A stretch of 60,493 bases of DNA, counting the filler, from Pirum gemmata (lineage: Eukaryota): NCBI GenBank assembly GCA_002812295.1. It is 10 parts of 10 records of this genome, joined end to end, with 100 filler letters (N's around TTAATTAATTAA, not from the genome) between each part and the next. Parts side by side here need not be neighbours in the genome. Positions count along the whole stretch, not along the records: positions 47,989 to 53,887 come from PDIN01000408.1; positions 53,988 to 60,493 come from PDIN01000409.1; 8 more parts are not named here. The stretch is one strand, 5' to 3'. The notes beneath the pieces were generated by a model, which ran no database searches, was not told the origin of the DNA, and was given only the letters and a program-made list of their open reading frames with translations. This document shows, piece after piece, positions 1 to 59,818 of this stretch (within the stretch, counting starts at the first letter, position 1; each line of letters begins with the position of its first letter). The position numbers and the translations under genes were made by a program.

Positions 1-518
1 AAAAAAAAAAAAAAAAAAAAAAAAAAAAACAAAAACAGGTGTGCTGATCGAAATTCCAATAATTAGTTCGAGCCGAACTTTCAAGCTCTTTTAAGACAAC
101 CCTTTATTGGCTAAAAGAAATGATTATAAAAAAAATTGAAAAAAATATTTTTTAGATCGTCAAAAAAAAATGCAAATCGAACCTATATAAAAAACTCGAA
201 TATAACATACTTTCTGAGATTTTCTGAGCTCTTTCTGGCCTTTCTGTAAAATAAGAAAAATGGACTAAATAAAAACAAAAACAAAAAAGTGATAGTAATA
301 ATAATAATGAATTCGAAGTTTTTATTAATATATGTATAAATTTATATATATTTGATAAATTTAAAACTAAAAAATAAAAAATATAAAAAATATATTAATT
401 GTTTTGTTATAATTTTTTTTATAATTTTCATTATTGCTTTATTATTATTGATTTTTTTAAAAATATACTGATAGTATTAGTAATTATTATCATTATTATT
501 TATTTTGATTTCCTTATC

Positions 519-2261
519 ATGAAATTACATTTTTTAAAAATTGCAGTTATGGCCAATGCCATAACCATAACTTGTACTGCCGCAGTCCCTACACCCGCTA
601 CACCCGCTATTGATAACCATAATAGTATATTGGGCCCTATAGTGGACATAGTTACTTCTCTGTGGGTTAAAGTTGATGACCAAATTAAAAAACATAAATT
701 TGATTATAAATCCCAACTTAATGTTACTTATTTCAAAGACCCATTTTGTTCAGAAAAAATTACAGAAGAAATTATTCCTATTGGGAAAGAGGACAGTGTT
801 TTCGGGAGAGATCATATGTATTTAGAAAAGTATAACCTCAATGAAGATCAAAAACAAAAAATGAAAGAAATAAGAGATAAGGCTGCTGCTTCTCACTTTA
901 AAAAAGAAAGAGAAGCAGAGCTGAGAAAAGTTTTGGATTTAATTGTGACAAGTAACGATGTTAACGAATTGGGTCGAAAATATGGTGAAGTTAGAAATGC
1001 CAAGGTGGCTGAATTGAACCAGAGATTTAATATTGCTGCTATTCACGAAATGAATAGTAAAACTAAATACCAACAGAATAAATATAAAGAGCAATTAGAA
1101 TTCTTGATGATGCAAGTAAAAGCAGAATTTAGTAATGCTAAAAAAATTGGAAAGTATTATTATTTGAAACACGATGAAGAGGAACGAATTAAATACACTA
1201 TTAAAGCCCAGGGATTTCCCTTCGGAAGAATTGGGATGGATTATGCTCCACAAATTAAAGAGGATGGGGTAAGTGTAAGTTTTTTTAATATGACAACCGA
1301 ATTCGATACAACCATATTAGAAACCAAAACATTTGATATTGGTAAAGTAAAAGTGGAAGCTGACACAGTCGATCCCGTCCCTGGAGTAATGATATATAAA
1401 GAATTTTTTTTTGAAAAAGGTAAGACTATGCCTGGTGAACAAAACAACGCAATAGTAACAGGTCGTGTATTTAATGTTTCTTCTGGTTGTTTGCCTGTCT
1501 CCAAAGACGACGGTGAATATTTAAAAGTAGCCACAAAAAATGCCGATGGCACTTATTTATACTACAATGCTCGTGTTGGGAATAATATAAATAATCTTTT
1601 GGTATTTCAAGCGATTGATTTGTTCTTTTTCAACGAAAATTTCCAACGTGATTTTAGCAACTTTAGTAAAGATGTCAACTTTGAGAAATTTAAACAATTA
1701 ACAACTACAACTTTGGTAGAATTTTTCACCAACCCTGCTTTTATGGCCATATATGAACACGATCGCACCAGTTTTCCTATTTCTAACATAGTATTACAAG
1801 TTTCCAAAAGTATTTTAATCAACTTGAAAACCGGAGATTTAGCGACACACAAACGTGCCGTTTTTGATATCGTTTATACTTGGGCCAGAGAAAAAAACGA
1901 TTGGACTGTTCATCGGGAAGAAACATATAATGAGAATATGCAAAAGGCACTTCATGATCATTCTTATGTTGGTAAAATGGTAACGGGTAAGATGTTAGAC
2001 AATGCTATTGTAAAAAATATGTTTTTCAAAGTAGCTGATTTTACTTTTTCTGCCACTCTTAATTACTCTTGGTGGGCGGCTAATTGTTTAAAGGCTAAAG
2101 TATGGTACAGAAAGGAATGTGACCATATACCTTCTCTACATGATCATATATCTAGTATGAAGGAAGAAAAGAAAGTTGAACCTGTACATACGGATCCTGT
2201 GCCATCATTGTACAATGAACAGTTTGTTATGGTGAACGGAGTGAAATATATTAAAGCATAA
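519..2261 (+). CDS. Intronless hypothetical protein (580 aa) with putative N-terminal signal peptide; no recognisable domain
   Basis: Long ORF with normal amino-acid composition. The first credible ATG is at 519 (MKLHFLKIAVMANAITITCTAAVP); the track extension 399-518 is AT-rich low-complexity sequence. Stop TAA at 2259-2261. Confidence 0.8.
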   Translation: MKLHFLKIAVMANAITITCTAAVPTPATPAIDNHNSILGPIVDIVTSLWVKVDDQIKKHKFDYKSQLNVTYFKDPFCSEKITEEIIPIGKEDSVFGRDHMYLEKYNLNEDQKQKMKEIRDKAAASHFKKEREAELRKVLDLIVTSNDVNELGRKYGEVRNAKVAELNQRFNIAAIHEMNSKTKYQQNKYKEQLEFLMMQVKAEFSNAKKIGKYYYLKHDEEERIKYTIKAQGFPFGRIGMDYAPQIKEDGVSVSFFNMTTEFDTTILETKTFDIGKVKVEADTVDPVPGVMIYKEFFFEKGKTMPGEQNNAIVTGRVFNVSSGCLPVSKDDGEYLKVATKNADGTYLYYNARVGNNINNLLVFQAIDLFFFNENFQRDFSNFSKDVNFEKFKQLTTTTLVEFFTNPAFMAIYEHDRTSFPISNIVLQVSKSILINLKTGDLATHKRAVFDIVYTWAREKNDWTVHREETYNENMQKALHDHSYVGKMVTGKMLDNAIVKNMFFKVADFTFSATLNYSWWAANCLKAKVWYRKECDHIPSLHDHISSMKEEKKVEPVHTDPVPSLYNEQFVMVNGVKYIKA

Positions 2262-8736: not shown

Positions 8737-10202
8737 ATGATGCACGCAATAAAAAGAAGTTTTGGACAACACAAAATCCAACCCCAAGAAAAAACGATGA
8801 ATTCAGATTTTGAAATTCTTCGGATATCATATAAACATGTAAGTTTATATATATATAGCTGTTTACTTTTATTAGTAATTCTTTAACAGTAGTAGTGGTA
8901 GTGGTAGTGGTAGTGGTAGTAGTGATTCTCGCTAGTAATAGTAATAGTAATAGTAATAGTAATAATAACAAAAATTATTAACAGTGTAGTATTTTAGCAA
9001 ACTCCTTTAGTTCTCTAGATCTCTAGATCTCTCCCTCTCTCTTCATTTTTATCTTTATATTTTGATAAAAATAATTACTGATTTACTAATGTTTTATTTT
9101 TTATGTAAAGTGTGAAAAAGATTTGAAAGCTTTCGAATCGTCATTGCAAGGAGTAAGCACGGGTTGGAAAAAGGTGGCAACATCCAATAACGATTACCTC
9201 ACTGCCTACGAAAATATGTACGTGAGATCTGACAAACAGTTAAAGAAAGAGGCGAAAGCTAATAAACGAAATGTGAAGCCCATTGCCTTAGACGCCACTC
9301 CCGAACCCAAGCAAGACATCACTGGTCACGTTAGTAAGACCCCTAAACCATACGTTTCTTCTGATGAATTTATGATTAAACAAAAACAAGAACAACAACT
9401 TATACACACGTTCGAACCTAAAAAAGTGGTTCAAAGTTGGGAAACTAAAACCCAGGAGTTTATTAAAGCAGAAGGGAAATTACCCAGTTGTCAAGTGGAA
9501 ATTAAAAATGCGTTGAAGTTTTTAGAAAAAGTGGACCATCAGATCGAAAAGAGAAATGACTACGTCACTGAACTGGATTATTACCGAGCTAAAGTAGTCG
9601 ATATGCATAACTTGAAAAATAAAGAGAGTCCCAAAAATAAAGCCCGATTATACAAAGCGGAAGCGCAAGTGAAATCTCTCACAGAAACTTACGAAGAACA
9701 AGAACGTATTTGTATTACTAATATGAATAAAGCAATACAATTAAAGCATGACATAGCTTTGCGCTCGACTATGGCCTTTTTTCACACTCAAAAGGTAATT
9801 TTTGAAACCAACCCATTTAATAAACTGTATGACGATTTTGTCAAGCAACATGAAGAATTAAACCCCTCCGCTGAATGGCCTGATTTATCCATGAGTTTTG
9901 TGGAACAAAGTCATAAAGTAAAAGGGTCATCCAATGGGAAAATGGTACATTCTATAACGCTTGAAGAAGGAAATGGGGAAAATAGCAACCACGATAATAT
10001 TTACGAAGACGCCAATGAACCCCCAAAAAATGATAGTGAAGCTAAAAATGAAGAATCCAACGAAGCGAAAGAAACCCCCGAAGAAACCCCCAAAGAAACC
10101 CCAAAAGAAACCCCAAAAGAAACCCCAAAAGAAACCAATGAATCCCAAAAAAATAACTCGAAACCAATTGCAAAGGATGACGATAGTGAGGCAGTTTTGT
10201 AA
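8737..10202 (+). CDS. BAR-domain protein (amphiphysin/BIN/Rvs-like), 397 aa; join(8737..8838, 9111..10202)
   Basis: Phase-0 intron GTAAGT(8839)...TACTAAT...AAAG(9110) gives EKTMNSDFEILRISYKH-CEKDLKAF. BAR-like motifs IEKRNDYVTELDYYRAKV and RLYKAEAQVKSLTETYE. Acidic tail with ETPK repeats. A further upstream exon is possible (in-frame CTCTAG acceptor at about 8724). Confidence 0.8.
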
Positions 10203-52768: not shown

Positions 52769-52910
52769 GAGAGCGTCCAAATAATACGTCGCGTCAAGGG
52801 GTAAGTAGGTAGGTGCTTTTGACCTGAAATTAACGTTGAGGAGTAGGTAGGTAGGGGTTTGAAGGTGCATTTGACTGGAAATTGGCGTTACGTAGTATTT
52901 GAACGCTCCC
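52769..52910 (+). mobile_element. MITE family D copy
   Basis: GAGAGCGTCCAAATAATACGTC...GCGTTACGTAGTATTTGAACGCTCCC. Confidence 0.85.
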
Positions 52911-53523: not shown

Positions 53524-53989
53524 AAATTTACATTTTTTTTTAAAAAAACTACCCATTATTTAAATATGGTAACAGAATATCTCTCTTTAGTATGTCTACG
53601 TGGGTGACTACAGCTGTGACTACTCAACCGTTAGACAAAAAAAAATTCAAAAAAAGTCTATAGACTAAGTATAGACTATGGCCCTTGGGGTAACATGTAT
53701 GGGTGACAATTATATTAGTCTTATGACATATGATATGATAATAAAATAAAAAAAAATAAATATATAAAATAATAAAAATAAAAAATTTAATAAATTATAA
53801 GGAGATTATTTAGTTTATTTATTAATCTAAGTAAGCTTAATTTCATTTAACATTATTAATATTAATATAACAAAAAAAAAAAAAAAANNNNNNNNNNNNN
53901 NNNNNNNNNNNNNNNNNNNNNNNNNNNNNNNTTAATTAATTAANNNNNNNNNNNNNNNNNNNNNNNNNNNNNNNNNNNNNNNNNNNNGA

Positions 53990-55024
53990 GTTCCAAGATT
54001 TTCTGAATTGATGTCTGCTACGAAGGAGCCTAAAGGTTTAAACATGTTTGTTTCGTTAAAACAAAAATTTGCTAAACCTTTCCATCCAAAACATTTGAGG
54101 GAGGTTGTAAAGCATAATTTAAAACAAATACTTGTTCAAGATATCATCCTTGATTATGATATACGTATTGGAAATGCTAAACAAATTTGGTATGATGCAG
54201 TGCATATCATTCGAGGAATTAAAAATGAAATAGTATACCAAAGTAAATTTCATATTGTATTTAATATCGATAATGAAGCTTTTTTCCGTTATGATCTAGA
54301 CATGTTTAAAGTAAGTGACATTTTAGAAAAAGAGTTTTCTGAATGGCGAATATTACCTAGTCCAATACGAATAGGTCAACTACATTTTTTTTGGATAAAT
54401 ATTCCACAAGATCTTTACCAAAACATGGTAAGCTTTTATTTTTTTATGTATAATATAATGATTCCTAAGATTTTAAATACCAAACTTTTTGGAATTTCTA
54501 AAATTGGGGATTATTTATTTCAATACAACGAAGAAGATGAGAGAATAGATTTACAAGTAGAAGGTTGTAACTTGATACAAATACTTAATAGTGAAATATT
54601 CGATAATACTACTGCCAGTTGTAACAATATGTGGGAAATCTATAACTTATTGGGAATTGAAGCTACACGTCAATATTTGATTGAAGAATTTGAAAAAGTA
54701 TTGAATTCAGATGGTATTACTATATTCCAGTCACATATTTTATTATTAGTAGATGTTATGTGTTTTACAGGTTCAATAACTAGTATTTCTCGTTACGGAA
54801 CTAGAAATAAAGAAAGTCCTTTAGCCAGAGCTTCATTTGAAGAATCTTTAGATAATTTTCTAAGAGCAGTAATTTTTACCGAAACTGACACCGGGGTAAG
54901 TGTTAGTGCATCCGTTATGTTAGCCAAAACCAGTAAAACTGGAACTGGATTTTGTGGATTAAAATTACAAATTAATCATGAGAAGGTAAATACTATTATC
55001 AATAAGCTAAACCAAATGTTGTAA
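53990..55024 (+). CDS. rpb1: DNA-directed RNA polymerase largest subunit (RPB1/RPO1), C-terminal fragment, NCLDV-like; 5' end cut by the contig start
   Basis: The frame is open from the contig edge: VPRFSELMSATKEPK. Conserved NNMWEIYNLLGIEATR, HILLLVDVM, SISRYG, PLARASFEE and KTGTG. No heptad CTD and no introns. Confidence 0.92.
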   Translation, partial: VPRFSELMSATKEPKGLNMFVSLKQKFAKPFHPKHLREVVKHNLKQILVQDIILDYDIRIGNAKQIWYDAVHIIRGIKNEIVYQSKFHIVFNIDNEAFFRYDLDMFKVSDILEKEFSEWRILPSPIRIGQLHFFWINIPQDLYQNMVSFYFFMYNIMIPKILNTKLFGISKIGDYLFQYNEEDERIDLQVEGCNLIQILNSEIFDNTTASCNNMWEIYNLLGIEATRQYLIEEFEKVLNSDGITIFQSHILLLVDVMCFTGSITSISRYGTRNKESPLARASFEESLDNFLRAVIFTETDTGVSVSASVMLAKTSKTGTGFCGLKLQINHEKVNTIINKLNQML

Positions 55025-55294
55025 CATTAATTTTTTATTTATACATAAATAAATGTTGTTGTTGATATCAGTTTTTCTTTTACTTGTTATCTTCTATATT
55101 ATTAAAGTTATTTTTTCTTTAAGTCCAATGAGTTTAAATTCTTTTAGCCACACGCGAAATTTTCATTGAAAAAAAAAAAGAAAATTAATTTCTATTGAAT
55201 TAGATATTTTATGGAATCAATAATTTCGTTTTTTTGAAAAAATATTATTTGTATAAAAAGAAAAAATAGGCATATTTCTTAGTAAAAATAAAAA

Positions 55295-56155
55295 ATGAAT
55301 TTGTTATATATTTTTCAAAATGATGCATGGCGTTATCAACATAATTATTTTTTTTGGTGTTTTCGTTACTTGGGAGAAAAAAGTTTAAGTTTTGATTTTT
55401 TTTTGGACGAAACTAATAAACGTGTATGTAAAAATATTTTACTTGATGAACAATGTTTATTTATTTTGGAAATTTTATTGATGTACAATCCCGACCCAAA
55501 CCGTTATGAAATAAAAACTGGAAAAAGATTATGCTTTGCTTTAGCTAGAAAAGGGTTTGAAAAATCTTTAATATTTTATATTAGAAAAAGCAAACAAAAA
55601 TTAAGTTTAGAAGAATACATACATTTATTTAATTTTGCATTTAGTTATGGCAATGTGCACATGTATGATTTTTTTAAAGAAAAATCGCTAACGATAAAAG
55701 ATTTAAATTTTAAAAATACTTTTCACGTAAAGACATATAAATTTTTGGTTGAACAACACAATTTTTCACTGGATAACGTACCATGGTATCCAATATTAGT
55801 AAATTTGTCTAGTAAAGTAGAGTGTAAGCAATGGTTCATAACAAACTTTCGTAAAAGCAATGATAATATAACGTTTTGGGATCAAGTTGAAATTATAGAA
55901 AATATTATCGATCATAATCACAAAGTAATGACTAACGAACAATACATGTATCTAGCAGAGAACCGATCAAGATATATTGAAAATCCATACAAGAGAAAAT
56001 ACTTTATGAATTTTTTAAATTTTATTAATAGAACGGATAATGAAGATTTTCGATTCGCTAAAGTATGTTTACGATTGGTTTTTGACTTTAAAATCAAAGA
56101 ACCTATTGTAGTATACAGACAAAAAAAAATTACTGACTATTTTTTTGTAAATTGA
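55295..56155 (+). CDS. Degenerate ankyrin-repeat protein with C-terminal PIP box (286 aa), giant-virus-like
   Basis: Ankyrin-like ILEILLMYNPDPN..KTGKRLCFALARKG and LFNFAFSYGN. Ends RQKKITDYFFVN. Intronless, with A-rich AAAAATG start. Confidence 0.7.
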   Translation: MNLLYIFQNDAWRYQHNYFFWCFRYLGEKSLSFDFFLDETNKRVCKNILLDEQCLFILEILLMYNPDPNRYEIKTGKRLCFALARKGFEKSLIFYIRKSKQKLSLEEYIHLFNFAFSYGNVHMYDFFKEKSLTIKDLNFKNTFHVKTYKFLVEQHNFSLDNVPWYPILVNLSSKVECKQWFITNFRKSNDNITFWDQVEIIENIIDHNHKVMTNEQYMYLAENRSRYIENPYKRKYFMNFLNFINRTDNEDFRFAKVCLRLVFDFKIKEPIVVYRQKKITDYFFVN

Positions 56156-56239
56156 AAAAGCGGTTTATTTTAATTGTTTCATTGCATTTTTAAATTGTGA
56201 CATTAATTTAAAAGAATTGATATTGGAAAATAAAAAAAC

Positions 56240-56833
56240 ATGGAAAGCGTAACAATTATTAACGAAAATAACGAAAATAACGAAAACGAAGATTCTAATA
56301 ACGATAATACAAATTCTATATCTTTGGATGACGTTGATCCAACTCAAACTCATCAAGATGGTTGGAATAGTGTAAATCATTCTTTGCTACAAAAGATGTA
56401 CAAAATGGTAAAAGTGCGTTCCAAAGAAACTGCTAAATCGAGTGATAGTTTTAAATCAAAAAATAAGTGGTCTTTTATTGGAATCACTTCATATATGACT
56501 CTAATATCTATAGTCAGTTTTATAGGAATTTCTGACGGTTTAAGTGAAAATCAAAAAAACGGGTTTCTAATTGCAGCAGGTGCTGGGAATTTAATTGGCA
56601 GTGCGATGTTAACTATTTACCAAAATCAACAATACGCTAAAAAAGATACTATGAATTCGGTGATGAGTAATCTCTTTTTCAGTTTACAAAATGATTTACA
56701 AACTTTAATTTATTCTCCAACGGACACCAGAGGTCAAGCAAATCAAGTGATAACAAGAAATCAGAAATCTATGTCTGGTGGTTGTAAAAATTGTTGCGGT
56801 GGTGGTTGTAAAAATTGTTGCGGTGGTGGATAG
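56240..56833 (+). CDS. Two-TM SLATT-like protein of the kind common in NCLDV genomes (197 aa; C-terminus possibly aberrant)
   Basis: Pattern W...LLQK...S, TM1 (WSFIGITSYMTLISIVSFIG), TM2 (FLIAAGAGNLIGSAMLTIY), then helical FFSLQNDLQTLI..P...R. The tail GGCKNCCG x2 comes from a 24-bp duplication. Confidence 0.65.
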   Translation: MESVTIINENNENNENEDSNNDNTNSISLDDVDPTQTHQDGWNSVNHSLLQKMYKMVKVRSKETAKSSDSFKSKNKWSFIGITSYMTLISIVSFIGISDGLSENQKNGFLIAAGAGNLIGSAMLTIYQNQQYAKKDTMNSVMSNLFFSLQNDLQTLIYSPTDTRGQANQVITRNQKSMSGGCKNCCGGGCKNCCGGG

Positions 56834-57022
56834 GCGGTTGCTTCTCCAAATTTTAATTTTCTTACTTTCTTGACTTTCTTGACTTTATTTTTTGTTTTGG
56901 ACTTATAGTTGAGTCCAGAATAATTTGGTGATTTTCTATTTGTTTTTATAGTTCTCAATGATCCTTAAAAATCATGCGAGATGGTGCTTTTCGAATAGAT
57001 GTTGAAGCACCTACTGATATAG
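56761..57022 (-). pseudogene. Possible frameshifted 3' remnant of a convergent basic-protein gene
   Basis: AISVGASTSIRKAPSRMIF, a frameshift, then LRTIKTNRKSP...KVKKVKKVRKLKFG..PPPQQFLQ x2. No proper start; its 5' side abuts the Harbinger-type terminus. Confidence 0.3.
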
Positions 57023-57032
57023 CAAAAAAGTG

Positions 57033-57148
57033 GTTTTTTGCGTTATGTCATATTACGAAAACCTACCCCCCTACTGCGTCACGGCCTGTCACAAAAATCC
57101 GACCCCCCCTACCTACCCCCAAGCGTTACGTAATTATTGAACGCTCCC
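57033..57148 (-). mobile_element. Single PIF/Harbinger-type terminus with subterminal repeats, interior facing left
   Basis: The minus strand begins GGGAGCGTTCAATAATTACGTAACGC, followed by G-runs, TGTGACA/CGTGACG and a second TAACGC. The outer flank is TTA. The TIR is nearly the same as family D. Confidence 0.75.
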
Positions 57149-57177
57149 TTATAATTATGATGTAGTTTCACAAATGT

Positions 57178-57385
57178 TATCGTCTATTTCATTACCGTTG
57201 TCCTCTCAATCTTTTTTAAGGAATACTGTTTAAGTGTATAATTGAACTTTTTTATAAAATACAGCATTATCATTAATTGATATTATTTGATTCTTTTATC
57301 AATAATCTAAATAATCGATATATATTTATTAAATATATAACAAAAGTATAAAATACCAAAAAAATCATGCCTGATAGTCTAACAG
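57178..57385 (-). mobile_element. MITE family B copy, degenerate
   Basis: TATCGTCTATTTCATTACCGTTGTCCTCTCAATCTTT..TACTGTTTAAGTGTATAATTGAACTT is the inverse of family B. Confidence 0.7.
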
Positions 57386-57813
57386 TGTTTTTCAATACTT
57401 TTTGAATGCTAACGTCTAACAGTGTTTTTCAATACTTTTTCAATACTGTTTGTTGACCAGTTCAAAAACTGAAATTTGCAAATAATTAGTCTATTATTGT
57501 AATTAAAGTTGCCATAAACCTCTCATACCCTAGTAGCTAGTCTCTATTCGTCAGATAGCGCTGTCATTTCTAACTATCGATACTCTAGCTAGTAGCTAGC
57601 TAGCCTTCAGGCAATGAACTGGTCTTTTTGAAATATTTTTTTAAGACTCAAGAATTCTGATTGGATAATCTTTGTCAAATTTTTAAGACTCTATTTTTCA
57701 CTGGATAAAATAATAAAATTACCATAAAAAGTCAATGAATAACCAAATTAAGTAAAATGTAAGATTGTTACCATCTTTAGTAATATAAACCATAAAATAA
57801 GACTTTGAAATCC

Positions 57814-57848
<35 letters not shown>

Positions 57849-57851
57849 TAG

Positions 57852-57883
<32 letters not shown>

Positions 57884-57944
57884 AAATTAGACACCTGGAT
57901 TTCTTATCGATAATTACCTAGATTATTTGACATAATAAAATAGT

Positions 57945-58285
57945 AATAAAATATACAATAAAGAATTTGGTATATTTTATCATCTATTTATTCGTTTTTA
58001 AAAAAATGTCAATTCAAAGGTTATAAACCACCAAATAAATATGCATAACTATTCAGAATGACAAAGTAAAATGAAAAGCACAAAATAAAATTCGTATCGT
58101 GCTTTTCAGTTATTTTGTCGTCATAAAAAAATAAACAATAAATAGTACCAAATTAATACAATATAAGTCCATTTCATTTTATTTGGTATATTTTATTATT
58201 ATATTTATTTATTTAAAAGTATCAATTTAAATATTATAAACAACCAGATAAATATTCGGAGTGACAAAATAAATGGAAAGCATAC
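57945..58285 (+). mobile_element. Two tandem family A MITEs (about 57945-58083 and 58095-58285)
   Basis: Family A termini and interior. Confidence 0.82.
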
Positions 58286-58799
58286 CACTGAAAAACACCA
58301 TACTTTGTCCCTCGGTCTACACCATGATTTTCATTGTGTTGGATAATGAGCTAGGGAAAGTTACCTAGCTAGATAAATGGTGGGGGGTCATGATTCTACT
58401 GTTTGTAAACATGATGATAATGATGATAATGATGATAATGATGATAATGATAATGATAATGATATCGATAATGATAACGATAACGATAATGATTTTAAAA
58501 AGAAAGATGAAGAATATTAATATTGATATATGATATAATGATAATGATAATGATTATGGCAATGGCAATGATAACTATAATGGCAATGGTAATGGTAATG
58601 ATAATGATATTGGTAATAATAATATAGTATTAATTAATATTAATGATAATGAGATGAATTTATCATATGATTTCTAAGTGTACTTCGAAATTCGATCGGT
58701 AAAATAGGAGTTTAGTAATGGACTAGTATTAATAACAGACTAATGGCGTTGTCTTAATCTTGGGCAGTCTTTTGAGTTTTGAAATTTTGACGTTTCAAT

Positions 58800-59380
58800 A
58801 ATAAGGATAAGGATAAGAATAAGGATAAGAATAAGAATAAGAATAAGAATAAGAATAAGAATAAGAATAAGAATAAGAATAAGAATAAGAATAAGAATAA
58901 GAATAATAATAAGAATAATAATAAGAATAAGAATAAGAGCAAGAATAAGAATAAGAATAAGAATAAGAATAAGAATAAGAATAAGAATAGCCCTAAAATT
59001 ATTATTATTCAAAGCAAGGACTACTCTGGCTAGCTTTCTACCTCTAGCTGAGCTAGCTACAATGCTACATAGCTACTACTAGCTAGCTAGTACTTAGCTA
59101 GCTAGTAGGTCTACACCAGAGNAGAATAAGAATAAGAATAAGAATAAGAATAAGAATAAGAATAATAATAAGAATAATAATAAGAATAAGAATAAGAGCA
59201 AGAATAAGAATAAGAATAAGAATAAGAATAAGAATAAGAATAAGAATAGCCCTAAAATTATTATTATTCAAAGCAAGGACTACTCTGGCTAGCTTTCTAC
59301 CTCTAGCTGAGCTAGCTACAATGCTACATAGCTACTACTAGCTAGCTAGTACTTAGCTAGCTAGTAGGTCTACACCAGAG
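58800..59380. repeat. (AGAATA)n microsatellite plus an exact duplication of about 260 bp across a single N (59122); probable assembly artefact
   Basis: The block ending ...GGTCTACACCAGAG occurs identically on both sides of the N. Confidence 0.85.
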
Positions 59381-59593
59381 ACTACAAGAATTTTTTTTTT
59401 TTCAATTTTTTTTTGAACTCCTTGTTGAACTCCATGTTATTATTCAAACATCAATAATAACCCGAAACTTTTCGGGTTTGCTCGAAAAATAAGATGGGTT
59501 CAAGCCTAATCAAATTTTGATAATTGTGCTTTTCGAACATAGATAATTGAAAAAACAAACTCGAAATTATGAGACTTATTTATATATAGAATA

Positions 59594-59737
59594 GGAAGCG
59601 TTCAAATACTACGTAACGCCAATTTCCGGTCAAATACAGCTTCAAATACCCTACCTTCCTACCCCTCGACGTTAAATTCCGGTCAAATACCACCTACTTG
59701 CCTACCCCTTGACGTGACGTATTATTTGAACGCTCCC
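59594..59737 (-). mobile_element. MITE family D copy with 3-bp TSD (ATA)
   Basis: ATA-GGAAGCGTTCAAATA...TATTTGAACGCTCCC-ATA. Confidence 0.88.
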
Positions 59738-59818
59738 ATAATAAACATAGGTGGTTATTTTTGAAACCTTCTCGCAGTTCTTCAGACTTCTTCTCGCATT
59801 TTCTATTTTTTTTTTTTT

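What the first reader, a model, noticed from the sequence alone, without database searches (positions are those of the whole stretch)
53988..57030. Endogenous giant-virus (NCLDV) segment joined to host repeat DNA
Seen: three tightly packed, co-oriented, intronless ORFs with no microsatellites or CTAG tracts, unlike every other contig. They are followed without an N gap by MITE families B, A and D, which are shared with host contigs. The first ORF is an RPB1 C-terminus that stops 17 residues after GTG with no heptad CTD. Known: NCLDVs encode CTD-less multi-subunit RNA polymerases and many ankyrin proteins, and giant-virus insertions occur in several protist and algal genomes. Inference: this is an integrated viral fragment. 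The wording VPRFSEL, SISRYG and ASFEESLDNFL recalls Pimascovirales-type enzymes (irido/marseille/pithovirus group) rather than cellular Pol I/II/III, but this comes from memory of motifs.
Basis: partly seen in the sequence, partly recalled or inferred. Interest (0 to 1): 0.88.

Follow-up and report, generated by a model that had tools for sequence, protein, structure and literature searches.

The report
Giant-virus DNA in animal-relative protist
A 3-kb stretch of giant-virus genes, including part of a viral RNA polymerase from the iridovirus/marseillevirus order, runs directly into host transposon DNA in the genome assembly of Pirum gemmata, a single-celled relative of animals, and is likely a viral insertion that a published screen of this species did not report.

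Summary
The observation mostly holds. Positions 53988-57033 carry three co-oriented open frames (82% coding), no microsatellites and chance-level CTAG. They run without an N gap into a truncated host MITE. The tail after GTG is 24 residues, not 17. ORF2 and ORF3 match EukProt models of Pirum gemmata (Ichthyosporea), which names the host. ORF1 is the C-terminal third of a Nucleocytoviricota RNA polymerase large subunit: 219 bits to metagenomic proteins, at most 82 to cellular structures. It falls in Pimascovirales (100/99), among the uncultured PM_01 family (97/93), on a long branch. No eukaryote rows were in the tree. ORF3 resembles two-helix SLATT-type proteins of giant viruses; ORF2 is a weak ankyrin lead. 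In one DNA run the block has depth 359, against 369 and 294 for host-side pieces, and two short parts show about 2- and 4-fold depth, suggesting more copies. The virus-MITE joint is not bridged by any listed contig, so a mis-join is not excluded. Endogenous giant viruses are a known kind. This case is notable because a published ViralRecall screen found none in Pirum, the species reportedly lacks DNA methyltransferases, and the only host assignment for PM_01 that I found is Opalozoa.

The parts
53990..55024 (+). ORF1: C-terminal 344 aa of a Pimascovirales (PM_01-like) RNA polymerase largest subunit; 5' part cut off by the contig start; no stops or frameshifts; 24-aa tail after GTG
55053..55169 (+). 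Possible 38-aa ORF with one strongly hydrophobic segment; not shown to be a gene
   Evidence: sequence only
55295..56155 (+). ORF2: 286-aa orphan; weak lead to viral ankyrin-repeat proteins; matches EukProt model Pgem_evm3s12513
   Evidence: searches began one codon late, at 55298
56240..56833 (+). ORF3: 197-aa protein with two predicted membrane helices (residues 77-100, 108-127), like SLATT-type proteins of giant viruses; matches EukProt model Pgem_evm4s12513; a paralog, Pgem_evm12s16871, is 70% identical
56764..56964 (-). 67-codon lysine-rich open frame without a start codon, overlapping the end of ORF3; possibly the tail of a fourth, broken gene cut at the junction
   Evidence: no relative found
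57034..57148 (.). Junction repeat: truncated very-high-copy host MITE; right terminal repeat present and followed by TTA, left end missing; the left boundary is approximate
57149..59818 (.). Host-type DNA: dispersed repeats shared with other contigs of the window (for example 57177-57269 and 59593-59737), CTAG tracts and microsatellites

Best explanation
This block is DNA of a Pimascovirales giant virus, closest to the uncultured PM_01 family, that is likely integrated in the nuclear genome of the ichthyosporean Pirum gemmata. Shown: the viral identity of ORF1, the virus-like gene layout, the species match, the gap-free join to a host MITE in this assembly, and depth equal to host-side pieces in one run. 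Inferred: viral DNA from a non-lethal infection reached a nucleus of the multinucleate cell and was patched into a chromosome break by host repair, at or inside a MITE, which would explain why that MITE lacks its left end. A later deletion next to a MITE that had jumped into a longer insert would look the same. The insert was then inherited. Intact frames suggest it is young. Extra depth over parts of ORF1 and ORF3, and a 70% identical ORF3 paralog on another scaffold, suggest several related inserts. The genes are most likely passive passengers rather than a working virus at this locus.
For: Sequence: the best hit is 219 bits, 41% identity over 96% of ORF1, against at most 82 bits for archaeal, 72 for RPC1, 70 for RPB1 and 57 for RPA1 structures. 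Of 24 GVMAG names looked up, 12 are in the Aylward 2021 table; 9 of those 12 are PM_01, including the two best-scoring loci.

Tree of 75 rows: Pimascovirales clade 100/99; a 44-row clade holding all 9 PM_01 rows 97/93. The placement is the same with 168 rows. AU tests reject grouping with archaea (p 0.005) and with the iridovirus-length row plus its sister (p 0.023).

ORF3's three best Atlas clusters are 90-97% viral, commonest Nucleocytoviricota.

Host: ORF2 and ORF3 equal Pirum gemmata models on one scaffold, apart from predicted introns.

Depth in run X1: block 358.7; host-side exact pieces 368.9 and 293.9 (ratios 0.97 and 1.22); first 99 nt 4.3-fold; an ORF3 variant 2.1-fold.
Against: No listed contig of X1 bridges 56993-57126: one exact piece ends at 56992, the next starts at 57127, and 6,998 records were not shown. 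The join runs into a repeat with about 3,800 times the block's summed depth, a classic place for mis-joins. X1 may be the source sample of the assembly, so it is not independent. Contig depth is no copy number, and no independent single-copy host gene was laid. The left junction is unseen. ORF1 is on a long branch (1.69) and has no supported sister; the single-gene tree nests an iridovirus-length row inside PM_01, so family rank is soft. No eukaryote sequence was in the tree. ORF2 and ORF3 have no alignable viral relative. A published ViralRecall screen reported no reliable hit in this species (PMC11244446).
Confidence: 0.72

Rival explanations
1. A free or episomal Pimascovirales virus persists in the culture, and the assembler joined its DNA to host DNA at a high-copy MITE.
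For: Genes are intact. The join falls at a very high-copy repeat, and no listed contig bridges it. Giant viruses that persistently infect cultured zoosporic fungi are described (PMC13533422, passages).
Against: Depth matches host-side pieces within 3-22%, which would be a coincidence for a free virus. Only short parts of ORF1 and ORF3 have higher depth, which fits scattered fragments better than one clonal genome. A graph assembler normally needs reads across a joint to write it without Ns (established knowledge).
Confidence: 0.13
2. The block is the edge of a large, still complete latent provirus that can reactivate, broken into contigs by short-read assembly.
For: About 2,490 coding nt carry no stop or frameshift. 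The contig starts inside RPB1 at a stretch with 4.3-fold depth, so more viral DNA lies to the left. The ORF3 paralog is model number 12 on its scaffold, which hints at a gene-dense contig (inferred from the name).
Against: The right end is a truncated MITE beside a possibly broken gene, with no sign of a clean viral terminus. ORF1 departs from 7 of 53 near-invariant columns, against a median of 2 in homologs, with 3 of 101 departing as much. No capsid or other hallmark gene could be looked for, because no whole genome is held.
Confidence: 0.1
3. ORF1 is a divergent host RNA polymerase paralog, or an old domesticated viral gene, in an ordinary gene-dense host stretch.
For: EukProt lists ORF2 and ORF3 as host genes with introns. 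The best solved-structure matches are cellular. Eukaryotic subunits were not in the tree.
Against: Identity to cellular structures is only 18-24%, against 37-41% to viral proteins. The placement is strongly supported inside Pimascovirales. ORF3 also looks viral, and the block lacks host sequence features.
Confidence: 0.05

Closest known systems
Giant endogenous viral elements (GEVEs) of the ichthyosporean Amoebidium appalachense (Sarre et al. 2024, PMC11244446; passages, Discussion and Table S5 rows seen)
   Same: Nucleocytoviricota DNA in an ichthyosporean genome, as incomplete multi-locus inserts mixed with host transposons.
   Different: Those belong to Pandoravirales near Mamonoviridae and are silenced by 5mC. 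This one is Pimascovirales, in a species for which that paper reports no DNA methyltransferase beyond DNMT2 and DNMT6 and no reliable ViralRecall hit. Only 3 kb is seen here.
Pimascovirales family PM_01 (Aylward et al. 2021, PMC8575486; passages and supplement rows seen), e.g. GVMAG-S-1101169-75 (g87), GVMAG-M-3300009182-61 (g88), GVMAG-S-3300011013-114 (g90)
   Same: Best-scoring labelled relatives of ORF1 (188-198 bits); same clade at 97/93; short tail without heptads.
   Different: At most 37% identical over the tree's columns, on a long branch with no supported sister. PM_01 was known only from 64 MAGs. Its first host assignment is Opalozoa (bioRxiv 10.64898/2026.10.11.758280, passages), from active infections rather than an insertion.
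SLATT (two-helix) domain proteins and unnamed Nucleocytoviricota membrane-protein clusters
   Same: ORF3 has two predicted helices; Atlas scores 0.93-0.91 to viral clusters; SLATT_4 match at E 0.041.
   Different: The match is 13.7 bits against a cut-off of 55, only 10% of one Atlas cluster carries SLATT_4, and no alignable relative exists outside Pirum.

Membership tests
Nucleocytoviricota RNA polymerase large subunit | Groups with viral, not archaeal, subunits | tested here: met
   Tree; AU p 0.005 against grouping with archaea; TIGR02389 140.6 bits, below its 420.65 cut-off
Nucleocytoviricota RNA polymerase large subunit | Excluded from eukaryotic RPA1/RPB1/RPC1 clades in a tree | tested here: inconclusive
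   No eukaryote rows could be fetched for the tree; by score 36-72 bits against 219, which strongly favours viral
Order Pimascovirales | Marker gene falls inside the order | tested here: met
   100/99 clade with PM_01, PM_06 and an iridovirus-length row, excluding 2 labelled Imitervirales; 99 in FastTree with 168 rows; one marker only
Family PM_01 | Monophyly with PM_01 in a multi-marker tree | tested here: inconclusive
   Inside a 97/93 clade with 9 of 9 labelled PM_01 rows, but that clade also holds the iridovirus-length row and ORF1's branch is long; other markers unavailable
Giant endogenous viral element (GEVE) | Gene-dense, intron-poor block of viral genes distinct from host DNA | tested here: met
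   82% coding; 0 of 261 host windows share its lack of microsatellites and CTAG excess
Giant endogenous viral element (GEVE) | Physical link to host DNA | tested here: inconclusive
   Gap-free in this assembly; not bridged by any listed contig, 6,998 records not shown; left end unseen
Giant endogenous viral element (GEVE) | Read depth equal to the host's | tested here: met
   358.7 against 368.9 and 293.9 for two host-side pieces in one run; no independent host gene laid
Giant endogenous viral element (GEVE) | Several hallmark genes (capsid, ATPase, PolB, VLTF3) | not testable with these tools
   No whole genome held; one hallmark gene in this contig
Giant endogenous viral element (GEVE) | Transcriptional silencing or 5mC marking | not testable with these tools
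   No methylation data; no RNA holder listed, which is no evidence either way
Ankyrin-repeat proteins (ORF2) | Ankyrin profile match or fold | tested here: inconclusive
   No Pfam hit; Atlas 0.95 but recognition 1936, below 2300, and 155 shared features; model pLDDT 46

The most novel reading that the evidence does not exclude
Pirum gemmata carries several recent, possibly large insertions of a deep-branching PM_01-type giant virus. That would make it the first opisthokont host, and a cultured one, for the largest uncultured Pimascovirales family, and a holozoan that keeps giant-virus DNA without cytosine methylation, so silencing must use another route or the virus is still latent.
Probability: 0.3. 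Interest if true: 0.8.

Novelty: new member of a known kind. Interest (0 to 1): 0.6.

Why it matters
PM_01 is the largest Pimascovirales family and was described only from metagenomes; the one host assignment I found is Opalozoa, in a 2026 preprint. An insertion in Pirum would add an animal-relative host that grows in culture, and a second, unrelated giant-virus order in Ichthyosporea. Sarre et al. 2024 propose that 5mC silencing lets hosts keep giant-virus DNA, and found none in Pirum. This locus suggests that screens of fragmented assemblies miss such inserts. It makes the methylation idea testable in a species reported to lack DNA methyltransferases. A 3-kb fragment alone does not contradict their claim, which concerns large insertions being rare.

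Tried and rejected
No whole genome is held, so no genome-wide hallmark search was possible.

ORF2: no homolog among 255 candidates; only its own EukProt model among 1.84 billion representatives; single-sequence fold at pLDDT 46; VIA best Z 6.7 to assorted helical proteins, uninformative; NCBIfam RTX match at E 0.017, 13 bits against a cut-off of 1000, taken as chance.

ORF3 and the minus-strand frame: no relative in viral contigs. ORF2 and ORF3 had no hit in the ORFs of 91 fetched loci or in the + strand ORFs of 80 later loci, and an ORF3 profile found nothing better than E 0.74 in loci L001-L119, so gene order is not shown to be conserved.

Fold searches of ORF1 confirm the polymerase fold but do not rank families well: BFVD top named hits are IIV-3, Marseillevirus LCMAC103 and Pithovirus sibericum at 18-24% identity.

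An attempt to fetch eukaryotic subunits with an archaeal-led alignment gave 80 viral-collection loci, none with heptads, all scoring 57-90 bits to ORF1.

No RNA holder listed. Run X2 shows only the MITE; its expected single-copy depth is about 1.4, so this says nothing. Run X3, another organism, has only 20-27 nt matches among its listed pieces. Reads were laid on 53988-57800 only, so depth further right is unknown.

Five GTDB hits look like viral contigs binned into prokaryote MAGs: four were in the tree and fall among Pimascovirales, and genome G001 also has a true RpoA2.

Earlier findings: nothing by sequence or by viral words in this genome.
Full report
Setting. The window is ten short contigs joined by N spacers. 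The finding is the first 3 kb of the last contig, which starts at 53988. No whole genome is held.

Observation. Three + strand frames lie at 53990-55024, 55295-56155 and 56240-56833, covering about 82% of the block. The block has no microsatellite bases and 7 CTAG against 7.4 expected; host contigs have 330 against 135 expected. Of 261 equal-length windows from the other nine contigs, 21 lack microsatellites, 48 have at most 7 CTAG, and none has both. There is no N up to 59121. The tail after GTG is 24 residues, not 17. The first repeat, about 57034-57148, keeps the right terminal repeat of a MITE family also present at 48882-49029, 52771-52910 and 59593-59737, but has no left end. Further shared repeats follow.

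Host. ORF3 equals EukProt Pirum_gemmata P013438 (Pgem_evm4s12513) except for 22 residues that the model cuts as an intron, and ORF2 matches P013437 (Pgem_evm3s12513). The window therefore most likely comes from the assembly of this ichthyosporean. A second model, Pgem_evm12s16871, is 70% identical to ORF3 and lies on another scaffold.

ORF1 by score. It matches PF04998. Solved cellular subunits score at most 82 bits (archaeal), 72 (RPC1), 70 (RPB1) and 57 (RPA1), mostly over the last 140-230 residues. Among proteins of 603-2000 aa, 527 of 2,904 candidates passed; the best scores 219 bits at 41% identity over 96% of the query, and most of the 120 listed are split, intein-bearing forms. I looked up 24 GVMAG names from the fetched loci in the Aylward 2021 supplement. 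Twelve are there: 9 PM_01, 1 PM_06 and 2 Imitervirales. PM_01 rows score 123-198 bits, PM_06 125 and Imitervirales 81-82.

ORF1 by tree. From 104 extracted rows I dropped 29 partial or redundant ones. In the careful tree (75 rows, 341 columns, archaeal RpoA2 as outgroup), ORF1 lies in a 50-row Pimascovirales clade (100/99) and a 44-row clade (97/93) holding all 9 PM_01 rows. That clade also holds L051, whose contig length equals Wiseana iridescent virus in the table. The end branch is long (1.69) and has no supported sister. AU tests on 46 rows reject grouping with archaea (p 0.005) and with L051 plus L028 (p 0.023). Adding 68 rows from a broader scan leaves the placement unchanged. No eukaryote row was available, so that alternative rests on scores.

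ORF2 and ORF3. ORF3 has two predicted helices. Its best Atlas clusters are 90-97% viral, commonest Nucleocytoviricota, with recognition 2497, and it has a sub-threshold SLATT_4 match. ORF2 is an orphan with a weak ankyrin lead.

Integration. One listed run, X1, holds 85% of the sampled words; it may be the assembly's own source. In it an exact 2,692-nt contig covers 54114-56805 at depth 358.7. Exact host-side pieces at 57317-57559 and 57551-57683 have depths 368.9 and 293.9. The first 99 nt have 1541 and a variant of part of ORF3 has 764, about 4.3 and 2.1 times the block. Of three listed differences in that variant, two are silent. The MITE bin has about 3,800 times the block's summed depth. 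The tool warns that these depths are no copy numbers. Against integration: no listed exact contig covers 56993-57126, and 6,998 records were not shown, so the joint is unconfirmed. The left end is unseen.

Mechanism. Most likely (0.72), viral DNA from a survived infection was captured by chromosome repair at or inside a MITE and then inherited, with further related fragments elsewhere. The capture step, the age and the passivity of the genes are inferred. Rivals are a free or episomal virus mis-joined at the repeat (0.13), the edge of a complete latent provirus (0.10), and a host or domesticated gene (0.05).

Literature. Sarre et al. 2024 (PMC11244446; passages, Discussion, Table S5 rows) describe Pandoravirales inserts in Amoebidium. 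They report no reliable ViralRecall hit in Pirum gemmata and no DNMTs other than DNMT2 and DNMT6 in the other sequenced ichthyosporeans, and say species without 5mC rarely carry large inserts. The result cells of Table S5 were empty in the text copy. Aylward et al. 2021 (PMC8575486; passages and supplement rows) define PM_01 as 64 MAGs. A preprint (10.64898/2026.10.11.758280; passages only; supplements not seen) gives Opalozoa as the first PM_01 host. The GVMAGs V2 paper (PMC13524828; passages, one section, four supplement files searched, one unreadable) does not name Pirum or Ichthyosporea in what I could search. I also read passages of PMC11286789, PMC13533422 and PMC12344493. I found no report of this insertion in searches; the last, ichthyospor plus Pimascovirales, returned 0 papers. 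Of most papers listed there I saw only the listing. Most subscription journals are not held, and broad virus-to-eukaryote transfer surveys may list these genes in supplements I could not see.

Verdict. This is a new member of a known kind, made more interesting by the host, the viral family and the methylation context. Interest 0.6.

Noticed in passing
window 399-2261 +: Uninterrupted 620-codon frame (about 580 aa from the likely ATG) with a hydrophobic, signal-peptide-like start and no Pfam match.
   Followed up: no
window 9090-10202 +: 370-codon frame, helical and charged, with a PKET/PEET repeat near its end; no Pfam match.
   Followed up: no
window 42150-42845 -: Leucine-rich-repeat frame (LRR_8, E 2e-23) with a signal-peptide-like start.
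   Followed up: no
window 58864-59380: Exact 258-nt duplication with a single N between the copies, probably a scaffolding artefact.
   Followed up: no
window 56764-56833, both strands: A 24-nt tandem repeat reads CKNCCGGG twice at the end of ORF3 and PPPQQFLQ twice on the opposite strand; the ORF3 paralog's model lacks this tail.
   Followed up: partly
L087-L091: Five GTDB prokaryote MAG contigs carry Pimascovirales-type RNA polymerase genes, probably viral contigs binned by mistake; the genome behind L090 also has a true archaeal RpoA2.
   Followed up: partly
window 1-53887: The host genome has a 2.4-fold excess of CTAG (330 against 135 expected), in tracts that often flank MITEs.
   Followed up: no
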